Shown here: positions 7,654-62,236 of the stretch, in pieces
Numbering within the stretch: position 1 is the first letter of the stretch
How the letters are laid out: every line of letters starts with the position of its first letter
Source: Ostreococcus lucimarinus
Taxonomy: Eukaryota
Reading direction: 5' to 3' (one strand)
DNA: 64,000 bases
NCBI GenBank assembly: GCA_000092065.1
Contig: CP000584.1
Program-made: the position numbers and the translations under genes
Notes under the pieces: model-generated
Seen by the model: the letters and a program-made list of their open reading frames with translations, nothing else
Database searches by the model: none
What the model was told of the DNA's origin: nothing

Positions 7654-9631
7654 ATGGCGGCGACGCGCGAGGACGACGGCGACGTTGAGGCGCGGCTGCG
7701 CGCGCGCTGGGCGGCGGACGGACGCAAAAACCCCGACGTCGAGGACGCGCTGCGGCGCGTGGGGATCGCGAAGGCGCGCGAGCGACGGTGCGTCCGCGCC
7801 GCGCGGGCGACGACGACGACGGCGACGAGCGATGCGCGAACGACACTAACGCTCGTTTATGCGACGCAGGGCGATGATGGCGCGAGCAAAGAATGTGGAG
7901 TTGCGCTCGAGCGAGGACGTCGGCGCGGCGAAGACGTACGAGGAGGCGGCGCCGCGCGCGGACACGCCGCCCAAGCGCGAACGGAGCGTGGAGGCGGCGA
8001 GTGAGTCGGCGGCGGACGAAGAGGCAACGCGTAAAGAAGCGATGCTCATCGAAACGTTCGATTCATCGCGGGCACCGAGGGGCCGAGGCGAAGGCGTCGC
8101 GGGGTCTCGTCGAGCGACGCCGAACGCGTCGATTGACGAACGCGCGCCAGGCGCGGGATTGCGGCTGAAAGGGAACGAAGCGATGAAGTGCGGCGATTTT
8201 GCACTCGCACAGGCGTTATACGGCGAAGCGCTGGATGCCGCGCGAGAAGAGGATGCGCATCTTCGAGCGGTGGTGTTTTGTAATCGCGCGTTGGCGTTTC
8301 ACAAGATGAACGAATACGATGCCGCGTTGTGCGACGCCAAGTGCGCGGAAGAGCTCGCGCCGACTTGGAGTAAACCCAAGCATAGACTCGCTGAGGCGTG
8401 TTTACGCCTGGGGTCGTACACTCTCGCCGTCACATACGCGCGTCTGGGCGAAAAACTCCAGTTCGAGGAGGGCGATTTCAGCAAATCGTTTCGCGACGTG
8501 CTGGACGAAATCGCGATTTGCGCCGCGGAGGACGGGTCCGTCGCCGGGTTTGACGGCAAATTAATTTACGTCCGAAGCGCGGGCGAAGACGCATGGCTCG
8601 GACGAGAGGCTCCTTTGAACGCGGCTTTCGATGAGCTAGAAGGCGAAGTCGCGGATCCTATGTTTGGTGGCGGCTCGGCGAAGGACGCGAATTCGATGAA
8701 ACCCGTGCACGCGAGGTCACTTCCGGAGGCAATTTCTAAAGCAAACGACGGTGACCGCATACTCTTACTGCGTGGCGTTCACAACGGGCTCGGAACCGTG
8801 GTTGAGATTGACAAGCGCGTGCTCATACGAGGCGAAGGCGCGCTTCGAGACACGACGTGCGATTGCCGAAACAACGCGGCGTTATTTCGCATCAAGCGTC
8901 CGTGCGTGATTCAAAATCTCGACATCGATTTCACAGGGTTTAGCGAGGCGATTCGCATCAAGGGAGATTCGCGCGTGAACGCGTTGATCGAGAATTGCGT
9001 GATCAGATCGAGCGGCGGCGACTGCGTTGCGGTCGGTGGCAAATCTGCGCCGACATTTCGCAACTGCTCAATCACGGGAAAATTGAGCGGCGTTCGCTCG
9101 TACGCCCAAGCAACGCCGACGTTTATCGATTGCAACATCACGCGCTCGGGATTACAGGGCGTGCTCGCCATGAAGGAATCACGAGTCATCATGCACGGCT
9201 GCGCGGTGCAAAACAACGAAGAAGACGGCGTCGTCGTCATGGAACAGTCCAACGTGGTGATGAGCAAATGCGTCGTACAAGACAACAAAGGCCCGGGCGT
9301 GGACGTTTCGAATACGGCAAAGGTTGTCGTGAACGATTGCGACATCGACGCCAATGTCGGCGGACTGTGGCTGTGGGACCATTCGTGCGCGCACGTCGCC
9401 GCGTCCAGCGTGAACGGGGGCAAATCTCACGCCGTGCTCGTCGACGTCAACGCTCGCGCGAATTGTCGCAGAACCAAAATCATCGGCGTCGTGCACGCGT
9501 CGGAGACGGGCGCGCGGGGCGTTCGGGGCGAAGGCACCGTCGTCGAGACGTTGGAAACGCCCACGTCGCTTCCCCAAGAAGCCAAAGGCGCGTTCAAGCA
9601 CGACCCGTGCGGCTTTTCACGAAAACAATAA
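7654..9631 (+). CDS. TPR-repeat plus right-handed parallel beta-helix (PbH1/CASH-like) protein. Proposed two-exon model join(7654..7787,7870..9631).
   Basis: ORF 7859..9631 contains a TPR-like segment (LRLKGNEAMKCGDFALAQALYGEALDAA...NRALAFHKMNEYDAAL) and about 8 beta-helix rungs (NCVIRSSGGDCVAVGG / NCSITGKLSGV / DCNITRSGLQGV / GCAVQNNEEDGVVV / KCVVQDNKGPGVDV / DCDIDANVGG). The upstream ORF 7573..8004 ends in a GTGCGT donor. A CACTAAC branch and a GACGCAG acceptor join the frames in phase (...AKARER-R-AMMARAKN...). The true ATG is probably 7654 (MAATREDDGD). Confidence 0.65.
7788..7869 (+). other. Putative 82-nt spliceosomal intron (GTGCGT...CACTAAC...GACGCAG) in the TPR/beta-helix gene.
   Basis: The donor GT sits at the third base of an Arg codon. 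The yeast-like branch point CACTAAC lies ~20 nt upstream of the CAG acceptor. Splicing is phase-consistent and links ORF 7573 (frame 1) to ORF 7859 (frame 2). There is no homology support for exon 1. Confidence 0.5.
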
Positions 9632-9676
9632 TCTCACATTCCTCCGCAATCCATCGCCCGCGTTCGCGCGCGCCGC

Positions 9677-10258
9677 CTATTCGTCCCCGAAATCGAACCC
9701 GCCGCTCTCGACGAGTCGCGCTTCGTCGTCCGTCGCCGTCGCCGTCGTCCCCGCGTCGACGTCGATCCTCGCGCGACGTCGTTCGCGCGTCGCGTCTCCC
9801 TCCTCTCGCGCGCGCGTCCGCCTCCGCGCGTCGTCCTCGCGAATCGCGCGCTTCGCCTCCGCGGTTCTCGCCCTCGCCTTCGCGTTCGCGTCGTCGCGTT
9901 CTCGCCGCGCGTCGTCTCGCGCCCTCTCGTTCGCCCTCGCGCTTTCGATCGCCCTCGCGCACGTCTCCGCGAGTCCTTCCCCTCCCGCCCGTCGCGTCCT
10001 CGCCGATTCCTCGCCCCCGTACGCGCGCGCCGCGCCGTCGCCCGCGCGTCCGCGCGACCACGCCGTGTGCGTCGGTTCGCCGTCGCGCGCGGTCGGCATC
10101 GTCGCGCCGCGAAACCCGTGTCGCGCGAGCGCCTCCATCGACACCGCCGCGCGTCGCGCCGTCGCGCCTTTCGTCGTTTTTTCTTCCCCGTCGTCGTCGT
10201 CGTCGTCGTCGTCGTCGCTCGACGTCGCGCCGAGCGCGTCCATGAATTTCGCCGGCAT
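9677..10258 (-). CDS. Low-complexity acidic/basic protein (Asp9 run, R/E/A/D-rich); hypothetical.
   Basis: Minus-strand ORF 9677..10333, trimmed to the internal ATG (MPAKFMDALGATSSDDDDDDDDDGEEK...). GC-ending codons. Convergent with the TPR gene and divergent from the ZZ gene. Could also be a spurious GC-rich ORF. Confidence 0.35.
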   Translation of the reverse strand: MPAKFMDALGATSSDDDDDDDDDGEEKTTKGATARRAAVSMEALARHGFRGATMPTARDGEPTHTAWSRGRAGDGAARAYGGEESARTRRAGGEGLAETCARAIESARANERARDDARRERDDANAKARARTAEAKRAIREDDARRRTRAREEGDATRERRRARIDVDAGTTATATDDEARLVESGGFDFGDE

Positions 10259-10502
10259 GCGCGCGGCGACCGACCGCGACCGCGCGACTGTGTTTGCAGT
10301 CCCGATACACATTTCGCGAATCGTCGCGCGCACGCGATGCGTTAAATACGGTTAAATACGGCGCGACGGCGACGCGAGCTCCGGCGCGCGCGGCGACCGA
10401 CCGCGACCGCGCGACTGTGTTTGCAGTCCCGATACACATTTCGCGAATCGTCGCGCGCACGCGATGCGTTAAATACGGCGCGACGGCGACGCGAGCTCCG
10501 GC
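10259..10502. repeat. Direct tandem duplication, period 127 bp (copy 1 = 127 bp including an extra 10-bp TTAAATACGG insertion; copy 2 = ~117 bp), in a divergent promoter.
   Basis: ORFs 10294 and 10421 begin with the identical 19-aa peptide MQSRYTFRESSRARDALNT, giving a 127-bp period. The unit GCGCGCGGCGACCGACCGCGACCGCGCGACTGTGTTTGCAGTCCCGATACACATTTCGCGAATCGTCGCGCGCACGCGATGCGTTAAATACGG...CGCGACGGCGACGCGAGCTCCGGCGC is read twice in the sequence. It contains the AT-rich TATA-like TTAAATAC. Confidence 0.85.
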
Positions 10503-10736
10503 GCGCGCGCGCTGACGTGGCGAACCGAAACGGCGCCGTCGTCGCCGCACACCTCGACGGCGCGCGCGACGCGACGGCGCGCGACGCCGGCGCGACGGAC
10601 GACGGCGCGCGCGCGGGCGGGCGAATCGACCGCGCGCGCGATTCGCGACGCGCGACCGGGCGCGCGAGGACGACGCGCGTCGCGCGAGGACGACGCGCGA
10701 GGACGACGCGGGACGTGCTGACGCGGCGTCGCGGCG

Positions 10737-14212: not shown

Positions 14213-14238
14213 TGGTATTTAGAAATTTCACGCCGACG

Positions 14239-15096: not shown

Positions 15097-15406
15097 TCGC
15101 GCGCGCGAGTGCGCCGACGCCGACGCGACGCGCGCCGAAACGCCTCGGCGAAAACGCACGGACGCGACCGCACAGCGCGACCGATGGCGACGGACGGCGC
15201 GCGCGGCGGCGGCGCGACGGCGACGGACGCGAAAAAAAACGATGGACGCACGATTTGGTCGTACAGGGACGAGTGCCAGACGTGGCGCAACTACGACGCG
15301 TCGAAGGGGTTGCGATACACGCGAGAATCGATCGATGCGGTGCGTTCGAAGACGTCGCGCGCGCGATGGTCGGAACGACGCGACTGACGGCGCGCGAACG
15401 ACGCAG

Positions 15407-15808
15407 ATGACGCGCGCGCACGAGTCGTTCGGGGAGCTGACGAAAGACTTGGACATGGACATCGATGATCCGGGGGAGCGGGCGTTGAATATTTTGAGAA
15501 GGGAACGCGCGGATCCGACGAGGCCGCCGGACGAGCCGACGCCGTTGCGGTTGAAACCGTTCGACGCCTCGCCGGGAGACGAGACGTGCGTGGTGAAGTA
15601 TACGTTTAGAAATGAACTCACGACGATCGGGGAGGTCGTCGAGGAGTTGGCGGAGATGCTGGGATTGATGCCGTGCGCGGTGTCGCTCGTGCACGCGGGG
15701 CGCGAGCTCGGGCCGCTCGAGCACACGTTGACCGATTGCGGTGTTTGCGCGAATTACGTGGTGTACTGGCGCGTGAAAAATGGCATCGCGGTGGTGACCA
15801 CCGCGTGA
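15407..15808 (+). CDS. Small hypothetical protein (133 aa), possibly a ubiquitin-like beta-grasp fold.
   Basis: ATG at 15407 within ORF 14891..15808. Non-low-complexity C-terminal half (CVVKYTFRNELTTIGEVVEELAEMLGL...VSLVHAGRELGPLEHTLTDCGV). No confident family assignment. Confidence 0.35.
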   Translation: MTRAHESFGELTKDLDMDIDDPGERALNILRRERADPTRPPDEPTPLRLKPFDASPGDETCVVKYTFRNELTTIGEVVEELAEMLGLMPCAVSLVHAGRELGPLEHTLTDCGVCANYVVYWRVKNGIAVVTTA

Positions 15809-19899: not shown

Positions 19900-21351
19900 T
19901 CAGCTTTGGTGCAATTGCGCGAAGTAATCCTTGTACAGACCTTCGCGAATGGACATGAAGCCGGCGATGTATCGCTTGTACTGCTGCAAGCGCGCGAGCT
20001 CCTTCTTCGTGAGCAACGTATGCAATCGCCACACGACGTGCTTGATGTATTGGATCACGAAATAAGTTATCAAACTCGCACTCAAGGAGTACGCACCGCC
20101 GTGCTTGATACCAGACCAACGAATTTGCCCTTCTCGCGGGAGCAAGCCCTCGAGTTGCGGGACGCGCGGAAGAAGCGTTCTCAAGCCGTGGGCGATGACG
20201 GGCGTCGCACAAATCTCCAAAGCCGCGACGTAAATAGACAAGAACAAGAACACCCACCCGAGGAGCATCAGCGCGATCCCACGGAGCGATCGTTTCAAGT
20301 TATCCTTCTTGTTCAATTCGTTCGTTTTAATAACTTGATCGATGCGATCTTCGATGCGCGTGCAATCCTCCTTCATCGTCGTCAGGTTTTTCTGCACCGT
20401 CAAACGAATCGCTCTATCGATGTCTTCACACACCTCCTCGATAGCGTTCGGAATTGGGACGGTCAAATCGTCTCGTGGCAGATAAATCGTCGGTAATTTG
20501 AACGCGTGCGAATTCTTAATTCGCGAGCTCAAGTTTTGCGTAATCTGAATCAAAACCCGCTGTCGATCGTGCTCCTTCTCTACCTGGTCCGCCTTCGACA
20601 TGTAATACGCCAGCTTGTCCGCGTGGTTCTCATTCAACGCCTCGATGACCTTCATCGTGCGCTTACACAGCGCCTGACCGATCGGGTCAAAGAACACCAA
20701 AATTAAGTCAACGTGGTCGGCGAGCGACTCGATGACTTTCGCCACGTCAAACGGGTAGCACATATCGCCATCCACCAACCCCGGCGAGTCCACGATGTCG
20801 ACGCAACTAAAGTTTTTCTCCTTACTCGTCGAAATCTCGGTAAAAATGTTCGCATTCAAACCCTCGACGTTCTGCACGCCTTCCAAATAATCGTAAAACG
20901 CGAACGTCGCGTCTCCCTTCAGCGTCTCCCGCTTCCTTCCGCTCGTCACGAACGTGAACCCACGCGTCTCGATCGCAACCCCCGTGGTTTGCACGCTCTC
21001 TCCGATGTACCAATTTATGAACGAGCTCTTCCCCGCGGAGTGATTCCCGATGATCATCGCGCTCACCTTCTTCCTCGGCTTGAAGCACTTCACCCTGAGC
21101 AGCGCGTCGTTCGCGATGTCGAGCAACCCGATCGACGTTCGCGACGTCGACGACCCAGCCCCCGGGCTCGGTCCTCGTTCGTACAATTCGTGTATGCTCT
21201 TCAGGATGCGCTCCTGCGCGTCGTCGCGGCGTCGCATCGTCGCCGTCGTCGTCGTCAGTCGTCTCGGTCGCGTCGCTCGCGCGTCGTCGCGTCGCTTTTC
21301 GCGTCGTTTTCGCCCCACGCACGTTCGGCGACATCGCCAGCGCGCCGGCAT
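19900..21351 (-). CDS. Dynamin-superfamily GTPase of the EHD/sarcalumenin type with a C-terminal TM segment.
   Basis: P-loop IIGNHSAGKSSFINWYIG and a downstream DSPG motif. The fold resembles the EHD/sarcalumenin G domain. Hydrophobic segment ALMLLGWVFLFLSIYVAALEI. Alternative start at 21237 (MRRRDDAQ). Confidence 0.65.
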   Translation of the reverse strand: MPARWRCRRTCVGRKRREKRRDDARATRPRRLTTTTATMRRRDDAQERILKSIHELYERGPSPGAGSSTSRTSIGLLDIANDALLRVKCFKPRKKVSAMIIGNHSAGKSSFINWYIGESVQTTGVAIETRGFTFVTSGRKRETLKGDATFAFYDYLEGVQNVEGLNANIFTEISTSKEKNFSCVDIVDSPGLVDGDMCYPFDVAKVIESLADHVDLILVFFDPIGQALCKRTMKVIEALNENHADKLAYYMSKADQVEKEHDRQRVLIQITQNLSSRIKNSHAFKLPTIYLPRDDLTVPIPNAIEEVCEDIDRAIRLTVQKNLTTMKEDCTRIEDRIDQVIKTNELNKKDNLKRSLRGIALMLLGWVFLFLSIYVAALEICATPVIAHGLRTLLPRVPQLEGLLPREGQIRWSGIKHGGAYSLSASLITYFVIQYIKHVVWRLHTLLTKKELARLQQYKRYIAGFMSIREGLYKDYFAQLHQS

Positions 21352-21582
21352 CGTTCGAGGTGTTCACTCGCTTCGCTTTGCCCGCGCTCATGCTCGCCGC
21401 GCGCGCGTCCGCGCGTCGTCGTCTGCGGTCGCGCGCGTCGCGTCGTCCCAGCCGTTGGTCGGCGGGACAAGATGATGCGCGACGCGCGCGTCCGCACAGC
21501 GCATCGCGCGAGCTCGCGAGCGCGACGCGGGCGAGAGAAACGCGCGCGGAGGACGTCGCGGCGCGCGCGCGCGCGAGCCGCG

Positions 21583-41802: not shown

Positions 41803-41979
41803 CACGGCGCGGGCGCGCGCGTCGGTGTGACGAACGACTCGGCGGACGACGCGAACGACGCGAACGCGCGGCGGACAACGCGAAGGCGAAAGACGCCGCG
41901 CGCGATGGGCTACGCACGTCGTGGACTACACATTACATCGAAAATTATTTCTACGATCGCGAGACGGTCGGCGGCGCGC

Positions 41980-42648: not shown

Positions 42649-42734
42649 GTTCACCCGCGGTCCGATCGCGCGCGGTTTCGTCGCGCGCGGTCGCGCGCGC
42701 CGCGCAGTGCGTCGTCACACGTCGACGCGCCGCG

Positions 42735-50307: not shown

Positions 50308-50773
50308 TTCGACCCTCTCTCGAGCGCGCGCGCCGAAAAAAACGCACCACCCTCAACGCGCTAGGTCAGCGCCGGTCGCCAATCGTCACTCCTCGGCGCG
50401 CGCTCGCGGGCCTCTCGGCCGTCGACGCGCTCGTCGCGCGCGCGGGCGGCGCGTGGGCGGCGGCGACGTCATGACCGACGTGTTCCCGCGCGCGCACGAC
50501 GCGCGCGGGAGCGAAAACGACGAGGTGCGACGCGGCGAGAGACGCGCGACGCGTGCGCGATGGCGATGGGAAAACGCGTCACGACGACGTTCGCGAGCGG
50601 TGAAGGGCGCGAAATGCGCGCGAACGCGCGGAAAACGCGCGAAAACGAAGAAGGGGGGACTCTCGCGCGATGCGCGCGCGACGGGGAGGCGGCGAGGCCG
50701 GCGCGCGGGCGCGACGTGGATTTTGAGTGAATGCGCGGACTGACGAACGCGCGCGAGCGAACAGGCGCCGGCG

Positions 50774-52417
50774 ATGCCGATGCCGAAGAGACGGATTCAA
50801 GCGCGCTACCGACGATCTGGCGCGTCTTTTTCGGTGCAAGATCGTGATTTAGTCGCGGCGCTGGAGAATATTAAGAATACGCGCGCGACCGCGTCGTACG
50901 GGAACGCGAACGCGTACTCGAGCGCGACGGCGAGCGGCGTGCACGCGGACGTGCCGACGGCGCTCGGGGTGTACGTCAAGGGCTTGGCGCATACCGTCGG
51001 GTTTAAGGATTCGCTGCAGAATGAACCGGATGCTGAAGAAGTGCCGGTGCCGGAGCAGCCGAAGACGCTGACGCTCGAGCACGTGTACGACGCGTTCACG
51101 GTGGAGACCATCCCGTCGCGAAGGCTGGTCGACGTGCACGCGCGCGCCGCGGAGCTCGTCGAAAAGCATTCTCTCGAGGAAAACTTTTGCATCGTCGACT
51201 TGGCCACGGTGAAGGCGCTTTACGATTACCACAAAGCGAAGCTTCCGCGTGTGCGGCCGCATTTCGCCGTCAAGTGCTTGCCCGACCGCGGCATCATCTC
51301 CACCCTCGCCGCGTTGGGCGCCGGTTTCGACTGCGCGTCTCAAGGCGAAGTTGAGTTGGTTACTGGTCTCGGTGTGCCTTCTGAACGCATTATCCTCGCA
51401 CACCCCGTGAAGCGGCCGTGCGATTTGCGCTGCATCGCCGAGTACGAGGTGCCGTACACCACCTTTGACTCTGTGTCCGAGTTGCACAAGATTCTCGCGT
51501 CCAAGGTCAAGGTGAAGCTCATCTTGCGAATTCGCGCTGATGATCCCATGGCGCGTCTTCCGCTCGGAGCCAAGTACGGCGCGCCACTTGACAAGGTCTC
51601 AGAGCTTCTTTCTGTCGCCGCGTTGCTCAACTTGGACGTCGCCGGCGTTTCGTTTCACGTCGGTTCTTCCTCGCGCAATCCGGACGCCTACCGCAACGCC
51701 ATTCAGTTTGCGAGGAAAATCTTCGACGAAGCGAAAGAGATAGGTTTCAACATGCACCTCTTGGATATCGGCGGTGGTTTCACCGGTTCGTTCGACGCCA
51801 ACGGCAACGTCACCGAAGCGCCATCCAACTTTGATCGCGTTCGAGACGCTCTCGATGAAATTTTTCCCGACGACGGAACGTTTGAAGGTTTGCAAATCAT
51901 CGACGAGCCCGGTCGCTACTTCGCGCAAGCTCCGGTCACGATGGCGTGCCTCGTATACGGTACGCGCGAAGGGACGAACGATGCAGGTGAGCGTCACATG
52001 GATTACTACATCACCGACGGCTTGTACGGCTCGTTCAACGGCATCATCTATGACGGTCTCGACTTGCCGACGTACTTCTTGCAACCGAACAAGGTTGCCC
52101 CGCTCGCTGGAATCGATAACGATTTCGACAAGATTAAGATTTCGTCCACCGTGTACGGGCCGACCTGCGATTCGCTCGATTGCGTCATGCGAAACATTCC
52201 TCTGCCGGAGCTGTCCAACGGTGACTGGCTCATGTTCCCAGATGCCGGAGCTTACACCATGGCTGGTGCGTGCGATTTCAACGGTATCCTGTGCTCGAAA
52301 TATCTTTGCTTCTACGTGAGTAGCGAAAAGATGACGAGCACGGCGACGGAGAAAGAGCTCTCAGATTTGGTTTACGCAAACGATCGACCGGCGTGCACGC
52401 TCGTTCAAAACCGCTGA
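50774..52417 (+). CDS. ODC: Ornithine decarboxylase (PLP-dependent fold-III decarboxylase) with an ~110-aa N-terminal extension.
   Basis: FAVKCLPD (the PLP-lysine region), GFDCASQGEVELV, GGGF, and the C-terminal substrate-binding region collinear with eukaryotic ODC. Confidence 0.9.
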   Translation: MPMPKRRIQARYRRSGASFSVQDRDLVAALENIKNTRATASYGNANAYSSATASGVHADVPTALGVYVKGLAHTVGFKDSLQNEPDAEEVPVPEQPKTLTLEHVYDAFTVETIPSRRLVDVHARAAELVEKHSLEENFCIVDLATVKALYDYHKAKLPRVRPHFAVKCLPDRGIISTLAALGAGFDCASQGEVELVTGLGVPSERIILAHPVKRPCDLRCIAEYEVPYTTFDSVSELHKILASKVKVKLILRIRADDPMARLPLGAKYGAPLDKVSELLSVAALLNLDVAGVSFHVGSSSRNPDAYRNAIQFARKIFDEAKEIGFNMHLLDIGGGFTGSFDANGNVTEAPSNFDRVRDALDEIFPDDGTFEGLQIIDEPGRYFAQAPVTMACLVYGTREGTNDAGERHMDYYITDGLYGSFNGIIYDGLDLPTYFLQPNKVAPLAGIDNDFDKIKISSTVYGPTCDSLDCVMRNIPLPELSNGDWLMFPDAGAYTMAGACDFNGILCSKYLCFYVSSEKMTSTATEKELSDLVYANDRPACTLVQNR

Positions 52418-52940
52418 GCGCGGGGACTGAGCCGACCATTCAATTTCCTATGTCCAAACGACAAATTCAACACAATCAATTTTGTTCGAACAAACATAAT
52501 CCAACCTTTGCTTCTTCAGAAGCGAGTCGAGAATGACCGTGGTAGCAGTTCGTCAAGAAGACGAATGCGGACGACATCGATTCCAAGTCGAGCTTCATGG
52601 TCGAGACACATTGTCTCGGGATGCGTCCTGTACAATATTAACAACATGCGATAGATCACACACATAGATGGTGCCACACTGTAAGCTGATCCTCAATATA
52701 TCATCAACCTGACATCGTCGAAAGCGCGCCGCGTCCCGATTTGTCCCGATTCTTCTTTGCTCCAGGCGCGCGCGTGCTCGCGGCAGTCCTCGTCGTGCGA
52801 GCCGTGTCGTCGCGCGCGGACGCCGCGTTCACGAGTTCACGTCATCGCACGCGCGCGCGCGCGTTCGTTCGTCCTTCGACGTCGCGCACCGCCGCGTGTA
52901 ACGTTTCTTTAGCGCCGATTCAATCCAACAATCCTTCGCC

Positions 52941-54001: not shown

Positions 54002-54170
54002 ATGTCCGCCGACACCGCGTCGCTCGTCGCGAACGCGCGGCAGCAGATCGCGCGCTTGCTGACGCAGCTCGCGGACCTGGAGGACGCGCGGGAGGTGCGC
54101 GCGACGGCGCGCGACGGCCGACGCGGCGACGACGGATGAATGCGTGGAACGACGATTGCGAATGGCTGAC

Positions 54171-54206
<36 letters not shown>

Positions 54207-54613
54207 AGGAGTTCGACGACGATGAGTACGCGGAGACGAAGGCGGCGACGCTGACGCAGCTGGACGCGTTCAAGACGTCGCTGCAGCGCATGACGACCGG
54301 GGACGTGACGCTCGAGGACGAGCTCGCGACGGTGAAGGCGGCGACGAAGGCGGCGATCGCGAGCGCGTTCAGGACGCCGGAGGTTTTGAAGATGTTCGCG
54401 CTGCGACAGCCGGACGAACTGCGAGAGCGGATGCAGCGAGCGGCGAGGGACGTGATGCTTGGGAAGATGAGCGCGGAGCGGGGTGAAGTGATACGGGTGG
54501 AGGCGCTGACGGCGCTGAAGAAACTGGGAAGCGAGTTGGAGGCGGAGGAATTGGAGTTTTTACGCGCGCACATGACGCGCGGGTTGACGGATTTCGTGGA
54601 CGCGGTGGAGTGA
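54002..54613 (+). CDS. LZIC: LZIC (leucine-zipper and ICAT-homologous domain) protein, two exons: join(54002..54094,54209..54613).
   Basis: Exon 1 (MSADTASLVANARQQIARLLTQLADLEDARE) plus exon 2 (EFDDDEYAETKAATLTQLDAFKTSLQRMTTGDVTLEDELATVKAATKAAIASAFRTPEVLKMFALRQPDELRERMQRAARDVMLGKM...) align collinearly with LZIC from memory ([63 protein letters not shown]...[27 protein letters not shown]...DRDLMVGKL). Confidence 0.75.
54095..54208 (+). other. 114-nt phase-0 intron of LZIC, containing a (GAC)11 microsatellite and an in-frame TGA.
   Basis: Donor GTGCGCGC immediately after the exon-1 Glu codon. A CTGACTGAC branch motif sits upstream of the (GAC)n run. Acceptor GACGCAG|GAG. Coordinates were derived from the ORF-track anchors; the exon-1 frame's TGA lies at 54137, one nt after the ATG for M139 of ORF 53722. 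Confidence 0.7.
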
Positions 54614-54676: not shown

Positions 54677-57600
54677 TTAGGGCTGCGGGCGCGCTTGGAC
54701 GATGCAAATTTCCCCAGAGGGAAGGATGCAGCCTTCGACGTCTTGCGGGAGCGTCTCGCCGCGCGGACTCAACTCGCGCTCGAGCTCAGAGCCGATGGCG
54801 AGAAGTTTGGTGGCGATTTCGTCGCGCTTCGCGACGTCGTTGTGAAGCCAGTGGGATGCGTAATCCGCGGCGACAGATTTCATTCCGGTTGCCGAGTCGT
54901 CATCGCGGACGAGGGCGGTTCCGAACGAGGCGAACGCATTCACCGTCGCTTTGCCGGATCGCTTGTCGACGCTCACGCGGCAGGGCGATCCTCGAACCGC
55001 GCCCGACGCCAAAGTCTCGCCCAAACCGAGCGCAAACTCGACGTACGCTTCGTTATTATCATTTGTGAGCGGGTGCTTCGTGTGTAGAACGAAACTGACC
55101 TCGGGCGAGAGCATCTCTTGGACGAGGACGCACATGTGCGCCTCGAGTTGATCGACGCCGGCGGCGGCGCGAGAAGCCACGGCGCGAGTGGTGTACAGGG
55201 ACGCCCATACCTCGCCAACAGCGCGACTGAATGCGTCTTCCGAGTTCGGGTCGACATTTGGGATGGAATCGTACAAACCAGCCGCGGACATCCCCTCGAG
55301 ATCTTCAACGTTGGCGCTACTTCGAACCATGACGCGCGCATTCGGGCCAAACTTTTCAGCGACGGATTGCAGCGCGCTCGCGGACGGCTTGAGCGAACGA
55401 ACGAGGTTCTGGATGGCTTCGCACGTGTGTCGCATCCTCACTGGGTCGTCCGCGTACTGGTTGAGTTCGAGGAGCAAACTGTCGAGATGTTCGAGCTTGC
55501 TGATGCTCGCGCACGCGAATTCCATTGCGCCGAATGGAATGACGACACCGGCGGGCGCGGCGAACGCCGCCGATCCAGAAGAGTTTTCGGCGATAGTGCT
55601 CAATCGTGCGCACATAGCGGACTTCGTACCGGCGATGCGAATCGACTTTTCGAGTCCACGCTTGTCCAGCGCGACGAGATCGAACACGGTTCCCGCTCTT
55701 GAGAGATCAGTGTCGAGGCGGATCACGGGTTTCGTCGCCTGTGGCCCCGCTTCGCTTGAAGCAGCCGCAACAGACGCCGGAGCCGTCGTTGGCTCGAGCT
55801 TAATTCCAGTGGTTTCCGCACTGAGCTTCACGGCAGGTTCATTCGCCAAAGAACGCGCGTAGTCGACAAGCTTGTCGTCTTCGACGGCGATGAGGGGCAC
55901 TTTGGCTTGACGCGCGCGAAGCGCCAAATGACTGAGATGCGGCAACGCGTGACACAGCACCACGCCGCGCACGTTCGGGCCGCACGTCGACACTTCTTCA
56001 TCACCATCAGCACTAGCAACGAGCACGATTACTGGCTCGGTGAACTGCGCGCACTCTTCGGGCGTGAGCCTTTCGACGCACTTGAGCGCGCCGATAGCCT
56101 CGCCTTGCACGACGCAATCCCATCCAGCGGCGCCGGTGATTTGCCGGCTGACTCGCAGCAACAAGGAAGCGATCTTGGCGGATTGGAACACTACGCTCGC
56201 GCGAATCTGACCTTCTGTGAACACACTGATTGAGCCGTGGTCAATACCGAGCGCATTGCCGAGACTCGACGCCCGTCCATCGAATAAAGATTCCAACAGC
56301 GAACAAAAGTCGACGGCGCCGCGTCGAGCGCGTTCGGCGACGGCTTGGACGCGCAAACCGCCTTCCTCGCCCGCGGGCAAACCATTACGAGCCAGTGCTT
56401 CGGCTTCGGACGCGATTGCCTCTAGCTCGTTATCGCCTCCTGCACTCAGCGCCATGGTGCGAGAAGTCAAAGCCAGCGCCTCAAGAGTGAGTTTTACTTC
56501 GCTCGCGCTGATGTCGTTTCGCGGCGGCTCAGACTCTGCGCCGAGCGCGTTGAGCAATCGGCTCAACAACACGAACGCGTAATCTTCCATGCTCACCTCG
56601 GCCAAGCGCCACTGTTGACGCGTCGATGATTCAGCTTGACCCAAATCCCCGCCCGATTCCAAGGCGGCGGTGATGTCCGTTCGCGCGTCGTGAATAGCAC
56701 GCAAGCACGCGACGAGCGCGCTCATAGTCGTTTGATCGCCCACGCGGTCGCTCGCAGGAAGCGCATCCACGGTCGCCTTCGCAGAGAGAAACTTCTTTGA
56801 GCTATCGGCCGCACGGCCAGGGGCGCCATTTTCGTTCGCGATACGATCGATGCGATCGGCCACAGAGGAGGCGTTGAAGAATTCCTTGAGCTCGCGATAG
56901 AAAATCTTAAACTCGTTGACAAACTCTTCGGGGTAGTCGGTTCCCGGAGCGGTGAGTTTGGCGAGCATAGATTCCGTCGCAACTAGATCCTCGGGACCAG
57001 CGCAGCGATGGAGTTTGTTCTGAATCGTGTGCTTGATTTCTTGTCGAACTTCGCGACATTTCCCATGTTGATCACCCTTGCCGTGCGCGATGTCGCGAAT
57101 GCGCGTCAGCGGCACGCTTTGCGTGAACTCGGCGGTGAACGCGGGGAGTCGTGGATGCAGACGGCGAATCAACGCACGAAGCTCACGCGCGCGGTAAATA
57201 TCACCACCACTCGCAACATCGTTCGCGAAACGTTCCGCAGCCTCGATTGCGCCGTACATACGTTCAGCCGAACCGGCGTGGTGGTTTGGACGGTAGTGCG
57301 TACCGTCCTCGACGCACGCGATGGCGCCGACAGATATCCAAAATAAATACACAGTAGCGTACGCCAAAGAGTCAACGTCGGCGCCGTCATCGCAAATTAG
57401 CTTCTCAACCATTTGCAGTTTCTGTCTCCATGAAGAAGAGTCGCGATCGCCCTCGACGATACGGCGCGCGGCGTCGGCGAGATTATCCGTGTTCCACTGA
57501 AGGTTACGTTCGCCGCCGCCGCCTTTGTGCGTTTGTAATTTCACTTCTTGACCGCGCCACTGGTTCAGCGCCGCGAAACTCGTGTCTTCGGTGACTTTGA

Positions 57601-58522
57601 TCGGTTCGACTTGCGGTGGCGGTGGCGGTGGCGGCGGCGGCGGCGGCGACGGCGCTTCCGCGCTCGGCACCTCCCGACGCCGCTCGGGCGTTTCTCTGCG
57701 CTCTTGACGCGACGGCGAATCGACCGCACCGATCGCGCCCGAAAGATCAAACACCAAATCTCTCCCATCGTGCTTGTACCACACCTTGCAATCTTGCGTG
57801 CGAATCAAGCACACGACCGACGCCACGTCACCGTCGCGCGGTTCGACGGCCAGCTCGACGATTTGCTCGCCGCTCCCGTCGTCCCGAAACCCCGACTCGC
57901 ACGACTTCCCATCCGGCGCGCGCGAATTCATCGGCACCGCTCGCAGCGCATCATACGGCGACCACCATTCGCCGCCGGCGCGCGACTGCACCCCCCAGTG
58001 TAGCAACAAGTTCCTCGAATCGCTTCCGCGAGCGTCCACCTCGCTCGTCCGCAGCGTCAGCGTCGCCCCCCCGCCCGCGCGCGCCTTCACCGCGTACGCC
58101 AACCTCGCCGTCGCGCCTTCGCTCGACCGCAGCTCCATCGTTTCCCACGCCTTTCCGTCTCGTCCCTCGCCCGCCCGTCGCGTCGAATCACCGACCGACC
58201 GTTCGCGCGTCGTCGACGCGCCGCCGTCTCGCGCCGCGTTCAAACCGTTCAAACCGTCCGCTCGCCGCACCTCCGCCGCGAGCGCCTCCAGCGTCGCGCG
58301 CGCGTCGTCCGCGCGGAACGGGTCCTTGACGCCGCGCGCGACGCACCCCGCGCGTCCGCGCGCGCCCGTCGTCGCGCCCGTCGTCGTCGTCGCGCGTCGT
58401 CGTCGTCGCGCCAGCGCTGGCGTCGTCGTCGCGTCGCTCGCGCGCGCGCCTCGCGCGTCGCGATGCGCGCGCGCGCCGCCGAGTCGCGCGCGCGCGGGCG
58501 CGGCGCGCGTCGTCGCGCGCAT
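54677..58522 (-). CDS. GWD: Alpha-glucan (or phosphoglucan) water dikinase, GWD/PWD family, with a plastid-transit-peptide-like N-terminus.
   Basis: C-terminal PEP-utilising nucleotide-binding domain ([27 protein letters not shown] ... ICIVQARPQ). Starch-binding-module-like LHWGV...EWW region. ~1281 aa from Met277 of ORF 54677..59350; the alternative Met222 (58687) would overlap the UTP4 ATG. Confidence 0.88.
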   Translation of the reverse strand: [1281 protein letters not shown]

Positions 58523-58685
58523 CGCGCTCGACGCGCGCGCTCGCGCCCGTCGCGCGTCGCGATGTCGCGCCGGCGCGGCCGACGCCACATCGCGACGCGT
58601 CGAGCGCCGACCGACGCGCGCGACGCCGACGCGCGACGGCGCGAACGCGGCGACGCGCGACGCGCGACGCGCTCCTGTCGTCGCC

Positions 58686-61109
58686 ATGCTCGAGCTCCAC
58701 CGCGGGCGCTTCGTGGAGTGGACGCCGAGCGCGGTGACGGCGCTCGCGGTCGCGCCCGGCGGCGCCCTCGTCGCGTGCGCGCGCGAGAGCGGCGCGATCG
58801 AGGCGTACGACGGCGAGTGGCGGTGCGTCGCGCGCGTCCCGGGAAGCGCGGACGCGGCGACGAGCGCGCTGGCGTGGTGCGAGGCGTTCGCGGACGACGA
58901 CGGGGCGACGACGCGGGACGAGGAGGCGGCGGCGGCGGCGACGAAAAAAGAGGAACGACGACGCGAACGACGACGACGAGGAGGCGCGGACGCGCGAAGA
59001 GCGACGCTGCTGAGCGCCTCGCTCGATGGACGCGTTCGGGCGTGGGATCTGGCGACGGGACGGACGACGAGCGAGACGGACAGCCGAGGAGGGGCGATTT
59101 GGGCGATGGAGGCGCAGCCGAGGACGCGGACGAGAAGAGGCGACGCGCAGCTCGTGGCGATCGCGTGCGACGATGGGTGCGCGAGAGTGCTGACGATGGT
59201 GGCGGGGAAAGACGTGGGAAGCGGGTTGGCGCATAAACGGGCGTTTCTGCGAGTGCAGGGTCGATTGCTGAGCCTGGCGTGGCACCCGAGCGAACCGCTG
59301 TTGGCGTGCGGGTCGTCGAGAGGCGCGGCGCACGTCATGGATTGCGTCAATTACAACGAGCTGATGCGCGTGTCGGTGTGTAATATTCCTCACGGGGCGC
59401 ATGGGATACTGAACGCCGGAGATGAGCACTGCGTGTGGGCGCTCAAGTATCTTCCGGACGGGACGCTCGTGACTGGGGATTCGGATGGCGCGGTGACGTT
59501 TTGGGACGGGAAGTTTTCCACCGAGTTGGTGCGATACCAGCAGCACAAGGCTGACGTGCTCGCGCTTGCGACGACTCCGAGTGGGAACAAAGTGTTCGCC
59601 TCGGGTGTGGATTCGCAAGTGGCGGAGTTTGAAAAGCTCGACGAGCACTTGGACAAGGAGGAGGGATACAATCAGTGGACGTACACGACGAGTAAACGAC
59701 CGCACACGCACGACGTGCGCGCGCTCGCCATGCTGACGACGGGCGCGGACGACGAGGACGGTATATTAATTTCGGGTGGTAACGACGCGCAACTCTTAGC
59801 GTACAATGCGGGGTCGTTTAGGAAGCAGCATCCGGTGCGCGTCGTGAGCGTGCCGCAGCGAACGCCGATTTCCATCACGAGCGTTGGGGGACCGAATCCG
59901 CCGCTTCTTCTCGCAGAGCACGCAAAATGGTTAGACATTTGGCGCATTGGTGAAAGTCGCAAGCGCGCGGATAAAAAAGAAGGCACGATGAAGCTCGCTT
60001 CGGCACCGGCGCACGTGTTGCGTGCCGAGCTTGCGGGGACGCGGCACATTTTATGCTCGGCTATTTCACCAAATGGTAAAATGATCGCGGTAAGCGACGT
60101 TCACAGCCTGAGACTGTTCGATATCCAATCACCAAAAGAAGGCGACGACGACTTGACGTGGTCGATTCGTCGTCAAGAACCCCCAGCGGGCGTGACTTCG
60201 GCTCAACTTCTCGCGTTTGCGCCCGATGGAAAGCACCTCACCGCCGTGTCGAATTCGGGCGCCGTGTACGTCATAGACCTCGAGGACTGGGTGGTTTCGA
60301 ACGTCCTCAAGTCGCACTTGCCAAAGCAAAGCGCCGCGGCCGAGGCTCTCGCGGAGGCGGTGCGTCAATCGAGTCAAGGCGTGGAAACGGTTACCGCAAA
60401 CGACATCGCGGTTCCCGTGGTGAGTCACCTGAGAGTGAGTAGCGACAACCAATGGCTCGTTGTCGTCACCGCGCGCGGCGGTGATGAAGCCGAGCGCGCC
60501 GTGGATGGTTTGGCGCCATCCTTCGGTGGCGGTGTTCACGTATACAACTTCGATACGATGAAGCTTCACGTATCTTTACCTCCCCCAAAGACGCACGCGT
60601 TGTGGCCGCCGATTTCGTCCGTCGCGGTGAGCGCCGACGGTGTCTTGGCGCTCGCCGGCCCTTCCAACGCGCTCTTTACGTACGACATCGACAGCGTGAA
60701 ACCGACAAAGTGGAGCGCCGCGCTCGCCGACGCCGGCGTCGACGCTCCAACAGCACTTCGCGAGATGCCCGGCCAGATTTGCGGTTTGAGCTTTGATCCA
60801 AAGTCAAAAAAGTCAGTGTTGCTCGCGCACACGCCCACCGCCATCGCGCGGGTGGATTTGAACGCCAAAATCACCGACGACGCGACTACAACGTCCAAGA
60901 AAAAACGCAGACGCGAGCGCGAGCGTGGGGCTCCCGAAAATTACGCCACAAGCGACGCCCCCGGAGGCGTTCGCGTCGTTAAACTCGACAACCCGTGCTT
61001 GTATTTGGGTTACGCCGGCGTGAACAAGGCACTTTTGATCGAGCGTCCGTGGGCCGACGTACTCAAGTCCTTGGCGCAGCCGTTGTACAGGCATAGATTC
61101 GGCACCTAA
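58686..61109 (+). CDS. UTP4: U3 snoRNP protein UTP4/Cirhin (WD40).
   Basis: N-terminus MLELHRGRFVEWTPSAVTALAVAP...AIEAYDGEW parallels Cirhin MGEFKVHRVRFFNYVPSGIRCVAY...TVEIYNLS. Internal SKRPHTHDVRALAM...ISGGNDAQLLAY parallels TKPFQHHTHDVRTVAH...ISGGTDTHLVF. The C-terminus ends in ...FGT, as in Cirhin. The ORF-track ORF 57774..61109 has a 304-aa junk extension upstream of this Met. Confidence 0.8.
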   Translation: MLELHRGRFVEWTPSAVTALAVAPGGALVACARESGAIEAYDGEWRCVARVPGSADAATSALAWCEAFADDDGATTRDEEAAAAATKKEERRRERRRRGGADARRATLLSASLDGRVRAWDLATGRTTSETDSRGGAIWAMEAQPRTRTRRGDAQLVAIACDDGCARVLTMVAGKDVGSGLAHKRAFLRVQGRLLSLAWHPSEPLLACGSSRGAAHVMDCVNYNELMRVSVCNIPHGAHGILNAGDEHCVWALKYLPDGTLVTGDSDGAVTFWDGKFSTELVRYQQHKADVLALATTPSGNKVFASGVDSQVAEFEKLDEHLDKEEGYNQWTYTTSKRPHTHDVRALAMLTTGADDEDGILISGGNDAQLLAYNAGSFRKQHPVRVVSVPQRTPISITSVGGPNPPLLLAEHAKWLDIWRIGESRKRADKKEGTMKLASAPAHVLRAELAGTRHILCSAISPNGKMIAVSDVHSLRLFDIQSPKEGDDDLTWSIRRQEPPAGVTSAQLLAFAPDGKHLTAVSNSGAVYVIDLEDWVVSNVLKSHLPKQSAAAEALAEAVRQSSQGVETVTANDIAVPVVSHLRVSSDNQWLVVVTARGGDEAERAVDGLAPSFGGGVHVYNFDTMKLHVSLPPPKTHALWPPISSVAVSADGVLALAGPSNALFTYDIDSVKPTKWSAALADAGVDAPTALREMPGQICGLSFDPKSKKSVLLAHTPTAIARVDLNAKITDDATTTSKKKRRRERERGAPENYATSDAPGGVRVVKLDNPCLYLGYAGVNKALLIERPWADVLKSLAQPLYRHRFGT

Positions 61110-61170
61110 TCGGCCCGAAATTGTTCAATACGATGAAGTAGTCTAAAATGATGTCGGTCGATTAAAATTC

Positions 61171-62099
61171 CTATTGTTGCAAACCGAGCAACATGTTCGC
61201 GCCACCGCCCGGCAAGTACATGACGTTGCGGCTTCGCGCGAGCGTCTGCGCAATCTCCTTGCTCGCTTCGATTCGGCGCAGCTCGACGAGCGCTGGGCCG
61301 GCAGCCTTGGTCGCTTGCGAGATCAAACGCGCGGATTCGGATTCACCCTCGGCGCGAATAATCGCAGCCTCTCGCTCTTGCTCGGACCGCTTCACGACGT
61401 AGGCCGCGCGTTCCGCTTCCTGTTGACTCACTTGCTTTGCTTCGATCGCCTTGGTGTACTCGGAGGAGAAGCTCAAGTGCGTCAGCGCGACGTCGTCTAA
61501 GATGATGCCGAAATCAGCCGCTCGCAGTCGCAAAGCCTCGCTGACTCGCTGACTCACCAATTGACGCTGCGTCAGCAACTGATCCGCGTTGAACTGCGCC
61601 ACGGTCGCCTTCAAAACTTCGTTCCCGATCGACGGCAACACCCGATCATCGTAGTCTTGCCCGAGCTCTTGATGAATCTTCGGCAGCTTGTCCACGTCCG
61701 GTCTGCACAGCACCCGCAGCGTCAAGTTCACCTGCTGCAAATCCTTCGTCCCCGTCACCGACGTCAGCGACTTCGCTCGCGTGCGCACGTCGTAAATCGT
61801 CGGGTTCTGAATGAACGGCACCACGAAGTGCGTGCCCTCGCCCGACGTCACCGGAAGCACCCCTCTGAAGCGGTCGAACATGACCGCGCGTTCGCCCCCG
61901 TCCACTGCGTACGATTACGCCCCGCGCGCGCGTCTCGTCAGTCTTCGCGCGCCTTCGCGCCGCGCGGGCGGTCGTATCATTTACGCGCCGCGCGTCAATC
62001 GCCTTCGCGTCGCGTCGCGTCGCGTCGACGACGCGCGCTCGTCGACGATTCGCGTCACCAACCCTCGATCGAGGCGTCGTCGCGTGCGTTCGCCGTCGT

Positions 62100-62132
<33 letters not shown>

Positions 62133-62236
62133 CGTCGCGCACCGTCGTAGATGGCCTGCGACGCCACGGAGGCGCCGACGCCGATCGTCACCGCCGCGCG
62201 GGCGAGATTCGTGAGCGCGTTCGCGGCGGCGCTCAT
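61171..62236 (-). CDS. PHB1: Prohibitin (PHB1-type), two exons: complement(join(61171..61904,62143..62236)).
   Basis: ORF 61171..61905 matches prohibitin from (V)DGGERAVMFDRFRG to the C-terminus. The missing N-terminal membrane anchor (MSAAANALTNLARAAVTIGVGASVASQAIYD) is encoded by an upstream exon in ORF 61646..62275, which ends in a GTGCGCG donor. Splicing recreates ...QAIYD-V-DGGERAV, matching the prohibitin consensus (...ALYNVDAGHRAV). Confidence 0.8.
61905..62142 (-). other. 238-nt intron of the prohibitin gene (phase 1), containing (GCGTC)n pentanucleotide repeats.
   Basis: Donor G|GTGCGCGACGC on the minus strand. Acceptor ...CGTACGCAG|TG GAC. The boundaries come from residue counting in the two ORF-track ORFs and are consistent with the directly read sequence around 62141-62160. 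Confidence 0.7.

What the first reader, a model, noticed from the sequence alone, without database searches (positions are those of the whole stretch)
7788..62142. Rare short introns with a stereotyped GTGCG(C/T) donor, CTRAC branch and GACGCAG acceptor
Four introns (82, 100, 114 and 238 nt) were needed to restore conserved proteins. Their donors are GTGCGT (TPR gene) and GTGCGCG (TBCA, LZIC, prohibitin). Their branches are CACTAAC, GTGACTGAC, CTGACTGAC and CGTAATC-like, roughly 20-35 nt from the 3' end. Three of the four end in GACGCAG and the prohibitin intron ends in GTACGCAG. Such constrained, yeast-like signals in an otherwise intron-poor, GC-rich genome fit Mamiellophyceae-type intron architecture. 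Other genes called here as single-exon could hide similar introns, for example hypothetical genes whose neighbouring same-strand ORFs differ in frame.
Basis: partly seen in the sequence, partly recalled or inferred. Interest (0 to 1): 0.55.

Follow-up and report, generated by a model that had tools for sequence, protein, structure and literature searches.

The report
Known constrained introns of Ostreococcus lucimarinus
The four short introns are real, ordinary spliceosomal introns of the tiny green alga Ostreococcus lucimarinus, and their unusually uniform GTGCG / ACTGAC / CGCAG signals were already described for this species in 2008, so this is a correct but not a new observation.

Summary
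The window is Ostreococcus lucimarinus CCE9901.

- **Prohibitin:** the spliced model equals RefSeq XP_001417571.1, and three 99.8%-identical contigs lack exactly this intron.
- **TBCA, LZIC and the TPR/beta-helix gene:** each is supported by gap-free homology across the junction. Each also has an intron at the same position in other Ostreococcus-like species. There the interior and length differ, but GTGCG, ACTGAC and CGCAG persist.

One detail is wrong. The prohibitin branch is a perfect AGACTGACG 33 nt from the 3' end, not "CGTAATC".

I found three more of the same type:
- 15340..15406 (+), which is in RefSeq.
- 21214..21322 (-), supported by homology.
- 50525..50764 (+), the first intron of ornithine decarboxylase, confirmed by polyadenylated cDNA contigs and missing from RefSeq.

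A fourth candidate (36816..36938) is untested. The introns show no introner-like similarity, only low-complexity repeats.

Irimia & Roy 2008 (PMC2483917) already reported this exact consensus for the species: GTGCGTG, GACTGACG, CGCAG and a branch-to-AG distance of 20-35 nt.

Verdict: real, and already known. The residual value is correction of gene models.

The parts
7788..7869 (+). Intron I1 (82 nt, phase 2) of the TPR/beta-helix gene. Exon 1 is 7654..7787 and exon 2 is 7870..9631. Signals: donor GTGCGTC, branch ACTAAC at 7845, acceptor GACGCAG, branch A 20 nt from the 3' splice site.
   Evidence: The 82 nt shift the frame, so read-through is impossible. The exon 1 motif RLRARW..G..P.vE is invariant in distant homologues. 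Introns at the same position in two other species have GTGCGG/GTGCGA donors and GACTGAC branches. No transcript evidence was found (contigs are all genomic).
15340..15406 (+). Exon 1 is 15184..15339 and exon 2 is 15407..15808. Signals: donor GTGCGTT, branch CGACTGACGG at 15383, acceptor GACGCAG.
   Evidence: The spliced model is identical to RefSeq XP_001417308.1. A 94-nt intron sits at the same position in L019, with GTGCGTT / TGACTGACG / GACGCAG. The overlapping minus-strand ORF is genic only downstream of about 14950 (O-methyltransferase domain).
21214..21322 (-). Exon 1 is 21323..21391 and exon 2 is 19900..21213. Signals: donor GTGCGTG, branch CGACTGACG at 21259, acceptor GCGCAG, branch A 41 nt from the 3' splice site.
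   Evidence: Spliced N-terminus MSAGKAKRVNTSNDAGALAMSPN|ERILK aligns with Micromonas pusilla and MMETSP transcript proteins (e.g. MAQKDKKRVNTKSSVEDMTMSPNERILK). The read-through ORF does not align. A 113-nt intron lies at the same position in L019.
34886..34985 (+). Intron I2 (100 nt, phase 0) of the tubulin-folding cofactor A gene. Exon 1 is 34724..34885 and exon 2 is 34986..35168. Signals: donor GTGCGCG, branch TGACTGACG at 34950, acceptor GACGCAG.
   Evidence: Pfam TBCA matches residues 6-103 in one stretch across the junction. The alignment to human 1h7c and Arabidopsis 3mxz is gap-free over ...KQQ|ENVL.... An intron lies at the same codon boundary in 19 metagenome loci, 12 of them from other lineages at 46-78% protein identity.
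36816..36938 (+). Candidate intron d (123 nt, or 119 nt from an alternative donor at 36820), just upstream of the annotated ATG (36961) of a MAP kinase kinase gene. Signals: GTGCGTG, CGACTGACC at 36902, GCGCAG.
   Evidence: Motif match only. Two possible coding first exons are in frame, but neither spliced protein is in the protein collection. No orthologue or transcript was available. Unproven.
50525..50764 (+). Exon 1 is 50471..50524 and exon 2 is 50765..52417. Signals: donor GTGCGAC, branch GGACTGACG at 50739, acceptor GAACAG.
   Evidence: The spliced 568-aa protein exists exactly in the collection (P0246). Five Logan contigs from five runs, 99.6-100% identical to the window, carry the exact exon-exon junction. 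One ends in poly(A) and one begins with a cDNA template-switch adapter. The orthologue in L021 has the same exon 1/donor arrangement and lacks the internal ATG used by RefSeq.
54095..54208 (+). Intron I3 (114 nt, phase 0) of the LZIC/ICAT-domain gene. Exon 1 is 54002..54094 and exon 2 is 54209..54613. Signals: donor GTGCGCG, branch TGACTGACG at 54169, then a (GAC)n tract and acceptor GACGCAG.
   Evidence: Homologues, including MMETSP and Trinity transcript proteins, align without a gap over ...LEDARE|EFDDDEY.... Gene calls from genomic contigs read into or out of the intron. A 60-nt intron lies at the same position in L021. The (GAC)n tract varies in length between strains: 114, 117 and 99 nt.
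61905..62142 (-). Intron I4 (238 nt, phase 1) of the prohibitin gene. Exon 1 is 62143..62236 and exon 2 is 61171..61904. Signals: donor GTGCGCG, branch AGACTGACG at 61942, acceptor TACGCAG, branch A 33 nt from the 3' splice site.
   Evidence: The spliced model is identical to RefSeq XP_001417571.1. Contigs L001-L003, from three samples and 99.7-99.8% identical, contain the exact exon-exon junction and lack the 238 nt. Introns at the same position occur in L021 (294 nt) and L043.

Best explanation
These are canonical GT-AG (U2-type) spliceosomal introns of Ostreococcus lucimarinus. They belong to the 'constrained' class that populates the GC-rich, intron-poor bulk of this genome.

Each is the single, first intron of its gene, 54-162 nt downstream of the start codon. 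Recognition depends on three near-invariant signals:
- a GTGCG(Y) 5' splice site;
- a (G)ACTGAC(G) branch site, ACTAAC in one case;
- a (A/G)CGCAG 3' splice site, about 20-40 nt after the branch adenosine and without a polypyrimidine tract.

The interior is GC-rich and T-poor low-complexity filler that drifts freely in sequence and length. It sometimes contains polymorphic microsatellites.

Shown here:
- the positions;
- the restoration of conserved proteins;
- removal from RNA for two introns (I4, I7);
- conservation of position and signals, but not of interior, across species.

Inferred from general knowledge of splicing: U1/U6 pair with the donor and U2 pairs with ACUGAC, with the A bulged. 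The uniformity is taken to reflect selection for strict signals in an intron-poor genome.
For: - **Organism and gene models:** exact matches to RefSeq proteins.
- **RNA-level removal:**
  - I7 by five cDNA-derived contigs, one with poly(A) and one with a SMART adapter.
  - I4 by three contigs carrying the exact junction.
- **Homology across junctions:** TBCA, LZIC, TPR gene, GTPase.
- **Orthologous introns at identical positions with signals kept and interiors unalignable:**
- **Composite-motif enrichment:** 12 vs 1.36. Eight of only 20 ACTRAC sites in the window lie at supported or candidate branch points.
- **Published description of the same consensus in this species:** GTGCGTG, ACTGAC in 87% and GACTGACG in 66.5% of EST-confirmed introns outside chromosome 2, a CGCAG preference, and branch-to-AG 20-35 nt.
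Against: - I found no transcript evidence for I1, I2, I3, I5 or I6.
  - A junction scan of metagenome contigs returned nothing.
  - All contigs retrieved for those genes retain the introns.
- L001-L003 carry no poly(A) or adapter, so their RNA origin is inferred.
- Two introns fall slightly outside the published 20-35 nt branch-to-AG range: I5 at 19 nt and I6 at 41 nt.
- I7 ends in AACAG rather than CGCAG.
Confidence: 0.95

Rival explanations
1. The introns are copies of an introner element (transposon-like intron family), recently inserted as in Micromonas pusilla.
For: All introns share end signals and GC-rich repetitive interiors. Local alignment scores between introns exceed mononucleotide shuffles. 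Introner elements exist in the sister genus Micromonas.
Against: - Similarity is confined to short (GAC)n/(CGCGA)n low-complexity runs, which also occur all over the window in exons and spacers.
- I2 has no other hit in the window beyond itself, and I5 only one weak one.
- Lengths range from 67 to 240 nt.
- Every intron tested sits at the same codon position in other species, with a different interior. They therefore predate speciation.
Confidence: 0.02
2. Some of the 'introns' are chance motif matches, and the genes simply start at a downstream ATG. This would apply to I1, I5 and I6, where an ATG lies at or after the acceptor. Under this view the upstream 'exons' are not coding.
For: - Prokaryote-style gene calls in all related contigs start downstream: a 585-aa TPR protein, a 133-aa Ubl protein, a 445-aa GTPase.
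- About one composite motif per window is expected by chance. One such match (28355..28628) is indeed false.
Against: - Exon 1 sequences are conserved at the protein level in distant relatives and in transcript-derived proteins.
- Exon 1, donor and phase are conserved in other species.
- I5 is in RefSeq.
- For ornithine decarboxylase the same doubt was settled by cDNA contigs.
Confidence: 0.03
3. The contigs lacking the prohibitin intron (L001-L003) are DNA from natural intron-less alleles, not spliced RNA. The intron would then be polymorphic in the population.
For: These contigs span several genes on both strands, include intergenic DNA, and show no poly(A) or adapter.
Against: - The deletion is exact at the GT..AG borders.
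- Two contigs from different samples end within 2 nt of each other near 59020, as at a transcript boundary.
- The intron is present at this position in two other species.
- Multi-gene contigs are expected from overlapping transcripts in this very compact genome (inference).
Confidence: 0.07
4. The atypical GTGCG donor and ACTGAC branch are read by altered or dedicated machinery. This could be a co-evolved U1/U6/U2 snRNA or a second spliceosome variant, distinct from what splices the short AT-rich introns of the low-GC outlier region of chromosome 2.
For: Irimia & Roy raise this as an open possibility. The two intron classes coexist in one genome. In related lineages the donor of the TBCA intron drifts between GTGCGC, GTACGC and GTGAGG.
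Against: - Nothing in the window bears on it: no snRNA gene is present.
- The published view favours a single spliceosome.
- ACUGAC can still pair with the canonical U2 GUAGUA through a G-U wobble (established base-pairing rules, not tested here).
Confidence: 0.07

Closest known systems
Constrained introns of Ostreococcus lucimarinus outside the chromosome-2 outlier region (Irimia & Roy 2008, PLoS Genet 4:e1000148, PMC2483917)
   Same: Same species and same signals. The paper reports 5' splice site GTGCGTG, branch ACTGAC / GACTGACG, a preference for CGCAG at the 3' end and a branch-to-AG distance of about 20-35 nt. The seven introns here show GTGCG in 7/7, ACTGAC in 6/7 (ACTAAC in one), CGCAG in 6/7, and distances of 19-41 nt.
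   Different: Nothing essential. Added here:
- per-locus evidence;
- conservation of position across species;
- position +6 can be A (ornithine decarboxylase);
RefSeq ODC lacks I7, and no public model matches I6.
Introns of hemiascomycete yeasts (GTATGT ... TACTAAC ... YAG)
   Same: Few introns per genome, a strong 5' bias within genes, near-invariant donor and branch motifs, and a constrained branch-to-3' splice site distance. This is convergent 'intron-poor' architecture.
   Different: Different consensus sequences (GTGCG vs GTATGT, ACTGAC vs ACTAAC), GC-rich interiors, and an unrelated lineage.
Short AT-rich introns of the Mamiellales big outlier chromosome region (BOC1 / chromosome 2)
   Same: Same genome and presumably the same spliceosome.
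   Different: Those are 40-65 bp, AT-rich, dense (about 1.5 per gene in Bathycoccus) and lack detectable branch or splice motifs. The introns here are 67-240 nt, GC-rich, about 0.18 per gene, and have strong motifs.
Introner elements of Micromonas (Simmons et al. 2015, PMC4540971)
   Same: Mamiellophyceae host; spliceosomal introns with canonical splice sites.
   Different: Introner elements are repeated families with sequence similarity along their length and lineage-specific presence. The introns here share no such similarity and are conserved in position between species.

Membership tests
U2-type GT-AG spliceosomal intron | GT at the 5' end and AG at the 3' end | tested here: met
   All seven supported introns and candidate d.
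U2-type GT-AG spliceosomal intron | Branch-site motif (CTRAY-like) a short distance upstream of the 3' splice site | tested here: met
   ACTGAC in 6/7 and ACTAAC in 1/7, with the branch A 19-41 nt from the 3' end.
U2-type GT-AG spliceosomal intron | Precise removal from mature RNA | tested here: inconclusive
   Met for I7 (cDNA contigs with poly(A) or adapter). Probably met for I4 (exact junction in three contigs). No transcript data found for I1, I2, I3, I5 or I6.
U2-type GT-AG spliceosomal intron | Removal restores a continuous, conserved reading frame | tested here: met
   Exact RefSeq identity for two genes.
O. lucimarinus constrained intron class (Irimia & Roy 2008) | 5' splice site consensus GTGCGTG | tested here: met
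   GTGCG in 7/7. Position +6 is T in 3, C in 3 and A in 1. Position +7 is G in 4/7. Published consensus.
O. lucimarinus constrained intron class (Irimia & Roy 2008) | Branch ACTGAC, extended GACTGACG | tested here: met
   ACTGAC in 6/7 and GACTGACG in 6/7. I1 has CACTAACG.
O. lucimarinus constrained intron class (Irimia & Roy 2008) | CGCAG at the 3' end and branch-to-AG distance about 20-35 nt | tested here: met
   CGCAG in 6/7 (I7 has AACAG). Distances are 20, 19, 41, 31, 21, 35 and 33 nt, in window order I1, I5, I6, I2, I7, I3, I4.
O. lucimarinus constrained intron class (Irimia & Roy 2008) | Located in the GC-rich, intron-poor part of the genome, not in the low-GC half of chromosome 2 | tested here: inconclusive
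   All introns lie in 61-66% GC sequence with about 0.18 introns per gene. The chromosome record is 930,724 bp, but I could not establish which chromosome it is. The first 8 kb of the window are 52-55% GC.
Introner elements | Many copies with similarity along the whole element | tested here: not met
   Only short low-complexity matches within the window. A genome-wide test is not possible with these tools.
Introner elements | Recent, lineage-specific insertion (absent at the same position in relatives) | tested here: not met
   Introns at the same position in other species for I1-I7.
Mamiellales BOC-type small introns | 40-65 bp, AT-rich, no conserved splice or branch motifs | tested here: not met
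   Lengths are 67-240 nt, T content 4-13%, motifs strong. Definition taken.
U12-type (minor) introns | RTATCCTT donor and TCCTTAAC branch close to the 3' end | tested here: not met
   All donors are GTGCG and all branches ACTRAC.

The most novel reading that the evidence does not exclude
The strict GTGCG/ACTGAC/CGCAG class and the motif-less short introns of the outlier chromosome region may be recognised by different machinery in one cell. This could be a co-evolved snRNA 5' end or distinct spliceosome variants, an open question raised in 2008. A more modest possibility is that the signals are strict enough to show that many public O. lucimarinus gene models lack a short first exon. In this window only 2 of 7 intron-containing genes have a public model identical to the supported structure.
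Probability: 0.07. Interest if true: 0.6.

Novelty: already known. Interest (0 to 1): 0.15.

Why it matters
As a phenomenon it is established. Intron-poor genomes converge on strict splice signals, and O. lucimarinus is a textbook case because a second, unconstrained intron class coexists in the same genome.

The practical value here is limited to annotation. The signals are specific enough to find introns from sequence alone, and doing so in one 64-kb window uncovered several model problems:
- a first exon of ornithine decarboxylase that RefSeq lacks, confirmed by cDNA contigs;
- a first exon of a dynamin-family GTPase;
- spliced models for TBCA, LZIC and the TPR gene that are not in the public protein collection.

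A genome-wide re-annotation using this composite motif plus RNA-seq would probably correct a noticeable share of 5' ends.

Tried and rejected
- **Junction scan.** I scanned JGI metagenome contigs with a degenerate 100-nt pattern covering the three exon-exon junctions of I1, I2 and I3. It returned no hits.
- **Transcript-derived contigs through neighbouring or identical proteins.**
  - The TPR gene (P0031) and ornithine decarboxylase (P0114) returned only intron-containing, genomic-type contigs.
  - All 19 TBCA loci from the second metagenome scan retain the intron.
- **Motif match 28355..28628 (-).** It fits GTGCGT...AACTGACG...GCGCAG but lies inside a continuous Band_7 domain and strongly coding sequence. 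Rejected as chance.
- **Other looser matches.** Those at 12401.., 16211.., 23858.., 39001.., 43936.. and 61549.. lie in coding sequence. Rejected.
- **Donor of the ornithine decarboxylase intron.** I first placed it at 50553 (GTGCGCG). The orthologue and the cDNA contigs show the true donor is GTGCGAC at 50525.
- **Candidate d.** Two spliced MAP kinase kinase models are not in the collection, so it remains open.
- **Rfam.** The window scan found no RNA family, so no snRNA gene could be used to examine donor complementarity.
- **Introner test.** Only low-complexity similarity.
- **Gap at 52444..52464 in cDNA contigs.** This is a 3' UTR indel polymorphism that is also present in an intron-retaining contig. 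It is not an intron.

Full report
**What the window is.** The window is about 64% GC, except for the first 8 kb at 52-55%. Two further window proteins match RefSeq proteins of the same strain exactly.

**Checking the observation.** A pattern scan and direct reading place the four introns exactly where stated, with the stated lengths, donors and acceptors. Each removal yields an open frame.

| Intron | Gene | Coordinates | Length |
|---|---|---|---|
| I1 | TPR/beta-helix | 7788..7869 + | 82 nt |
| I2 | TBCA | 34886..34985 + | 100 nt |
| I3 | LZIC | 54095..54208 + | 114 nt |
| I4 | prohibitin | 61905..62142 - | 238 nt |

One detail is wrong. The prohibitin intron does not use a 'CGTAATC-like' branch. 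It has the full AGACTGACG motif, with the branch A 33 nt from the 3' end.

The combination GTGCGY...ACTRAC...CGCAG occurs 12 times (8 distinct branch/acceptor modules), against 1.36 expected from dinucleotide shuffles. The single motifs are each rarer than expected. ACTRAC occurs only 20 times on both strands, and 8 of those sites are at supported or candidate branch points.

**Are the four introns real?**
- **I4.**
  - Its spliced model is identical to RefSeq.
  - Three contigs from three samples (L001-L003), 99.7-99.8% identical to the window, contain the exact exon-exon junction and lack the 238 nt.
- **I2.**
  - The Pfam TBCA domain runs 6-103 in a single stretch over the junction.
  - Human and Arabidopsis TBCA align without a gap over ...KQQ|ENVL....
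- **I3.**
  - Homologues, including transcript-derived MMETSP and Trinity proteins, align gap-free over ...DARE|EFDDDEY....
  - Gene calls from genomic contigs of close relatives read through or start inside the intron.
- **I1.**
  - The 82 nt shift the frame.
  - Exon 1 carries a motif (L..RW..G..P..E) that is invariant in distant homologues (P0049, P0051, P0052, P0057, P0064) and in two orthologues.

**Comparative evidence.** I retrieved syntenic contigs from other Ostreococcus-like species and 19 TBCA loci from metagenomes. Every intron examined has a counterpart at the same codon position:
- I6 and I5 in L019;
- I3 and I4 in L021, and I4 also in L043;
- I1 in L041 and L042;
- I2 in 12 non-identical loci.

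Lengths differ (for example 60 vs 114 nt, 294 vs 238 nt) and the interiors cannot be aligned. GTGCG, (G)ACTGAC and CGCAG persist, and in more distant lineages the TBCA donor drifts to GTACGC or GTGAGG. This is the signature of old introns with selection on the signals only.

**Hidden introns.** The composite motif pointed to further sites.
- **I5, 15340..15406 + (67 nt).** It joins two same-strand ORFs in different frames. The spliced protein is identical to XP_001417308.1.
- **I6, 21214..21322 - (109 nt).**
  - It lies in an ORF that stays open through the intron.
  - The spliced N-terminus MSAGKAKRVNTSNDAGALAMSPN|ERILK matches Micromonas and MMETSP transcript proteins, and the read-through version does not.
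- **I7, 50525..50764 + (240 nt, donor GTGCGAC).**
  - It adds an 18-codon first exon to ornithine decarboxylase.
  - The spliced 568-aa protein is in the collection.
  - Five Logan contigs from five runs carry the exact junction. One ends in poly(A) and one starts with a cDNA template-switch adapter.
  - RefSeq XP_001417323.1 starts at the downstream ATG and lacks this exon.
  - The orthologue in L021 lacks that ATG altogether.
- **Candidate d, 36816..36938 +, upstream of a MAP kinase kinase ORF.** It fits the motif but could not be tested.
- **False match.** One match (28355..28628 -) is false, because it lies inside a continuous Band_7 domain.

**Anatomy.** Pfam annotation of the long ORFs gives about 39 genes. 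That is roughly 0.18 introns per gene, close to the 0.15 reported for non-outlier regions of Bathycoccus.
- All seven introns are the only intron of their gene and lie 54-162 nt after the start codon.
- Five are phase 0, one phase 1 and one phase 2.
- They are T-poor (4-13% T), with no polypyrimidine tract between branch and acceptor.
- Their interiors are (GAC)n/(CGCGA)n-like low complexity.
- In I3 the (GAC)n tract between branch and acceptor varies between strains: 114, 117 and 99 nt.

**Introner test.** Intron-to-intron and intron-to-window comparisons give only short low-complexity matches, which also occur in exons and spacers. I2 matches nothing else in the window, and I5 only one weak hit. 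Together with positional conservation across species, this rejects the introner idea.

**Comparison with what is known.** Irimia & Roy (2008, PMC2483917) analysed EST-confirmed O. lucimarinus introns. Outside chromosome 2 they reported:
- the atypical 5' consensus GTGCGTG (4.8 bits);
- ACTGAC in 87% and GACTGACG in 66.5% of introns;
- a preference for CGCAG;
- a branch-to-AG distance of about 20-35 nt.

They contrasted these with the weakly defined introns of the intron-rich half of chromosome 2. A literature search for the donor motif with the genus name returns only that paper.

The finding is therefore correct and already known. What is new is limited to gene-model corrections in this window.

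**Limits.**
- I found no transcript evidence for I1, I2, I3, I5 or I6.
- The RNA origin of L001-L003 is inferred, because they carry no poly(A).
- I could not determine which chromosome the window lies on.
- No snRNA gene is in the window, so the question of how GTGCG is recognised stays open.

Noticed in passing
window 50471..50524 (exon) and 50525..50764 (intron): The RefSeq ornithine decarboxylase model (XP_001417323.1, 547 aa) starts at an internal ATG. cDNA-derived contigs show an extra first exon, giving a 568-aa protein.
   Followed up: yes
window 1..8000: This stretch is markedly lower in GC (52-55% vs about 64%). It coincides with a giant ORF (193..7371, running off the window start; 3,300-3,900 aa in related contigs) with only a faint bacterial Ig-like (Big_13) hit. 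Whether it is an edge of a low-GC outlier region was not determined.
   Followed up: partly
window 10259..10509: A 127-nt tandem duplication with a 93-nt core that is 100% identical, in an intergenic spacer. Alignments of 99%-identical strains break and re-join here, which indicates copy-number or length variation between strains.
   Followed up: partly
window 54172..54203: [quoted passage not shown] Intron length is 114 nt here, 117 nt in L015 and 99 nt in the strain behind P0016, so the branch-to-AG distance is polymorphic.
   Followed up: partly
window 52444..52464: A 21-nt indel polymorphism just after the ornithine decarboxylase stop codon. It is seen in both intron-retaining and spliced contigs, so it is not an intron.
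   Followed up: partly
whole window, both strands: The individual splice motifs are under-represented relative to dinucleotide shuffles: CGCAG 173 vs 271+-15, GTGCGY 180 vs 221+-13, ACTRAC 20 vs 29+-5. This could reflect avoidance of cryptic splice signals or simply codon usage.
   Followed up: no
window 15407..15808 (protein P0075 from a JGI contig): One environmental variant of the ubiquitin-like protein lacks 19 residues (GERALNILRRERADPTRAP, 57 nt) inside exon 2. This could be a deletion allele, an assembly artefact or a cryptic splice event.
   Followed up: no
window 54677..61109: Two very long ORFs on opposite strands overlap over 57774..59350: glucan water dikinase on the minus strand and a WD40 protein on the plus strand. 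Pfam hits show each is genic only in its non-overlapping part. This illustrates how long shadow ORFs in this GC-rich DNA can hide introns and true starts.
   Followed up: partly
window 41766..44420: An 884-aa ORF with a retroviral-type aspartyl protease domain (Asp_protease_2 / gag-asp_proteas). It is conserved in synteny in L021, so it is probably a DDI1-like host gene rather than a mobile element. Not examined.
   Followed up: no
loci L022, L030-L040 (TBCA orthologues): At one conserved intron position the donor differs between Mamiellophyceae lineages (GTGCGC, GTGCGT, GTACGC, GTACGT, GTGAGG), and the branch ranges from ACTGAC to TTGAC. The strict GTGCG/ACTGAC form is therefore lineage-specific rather than class-wide.
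   Followed up: partly
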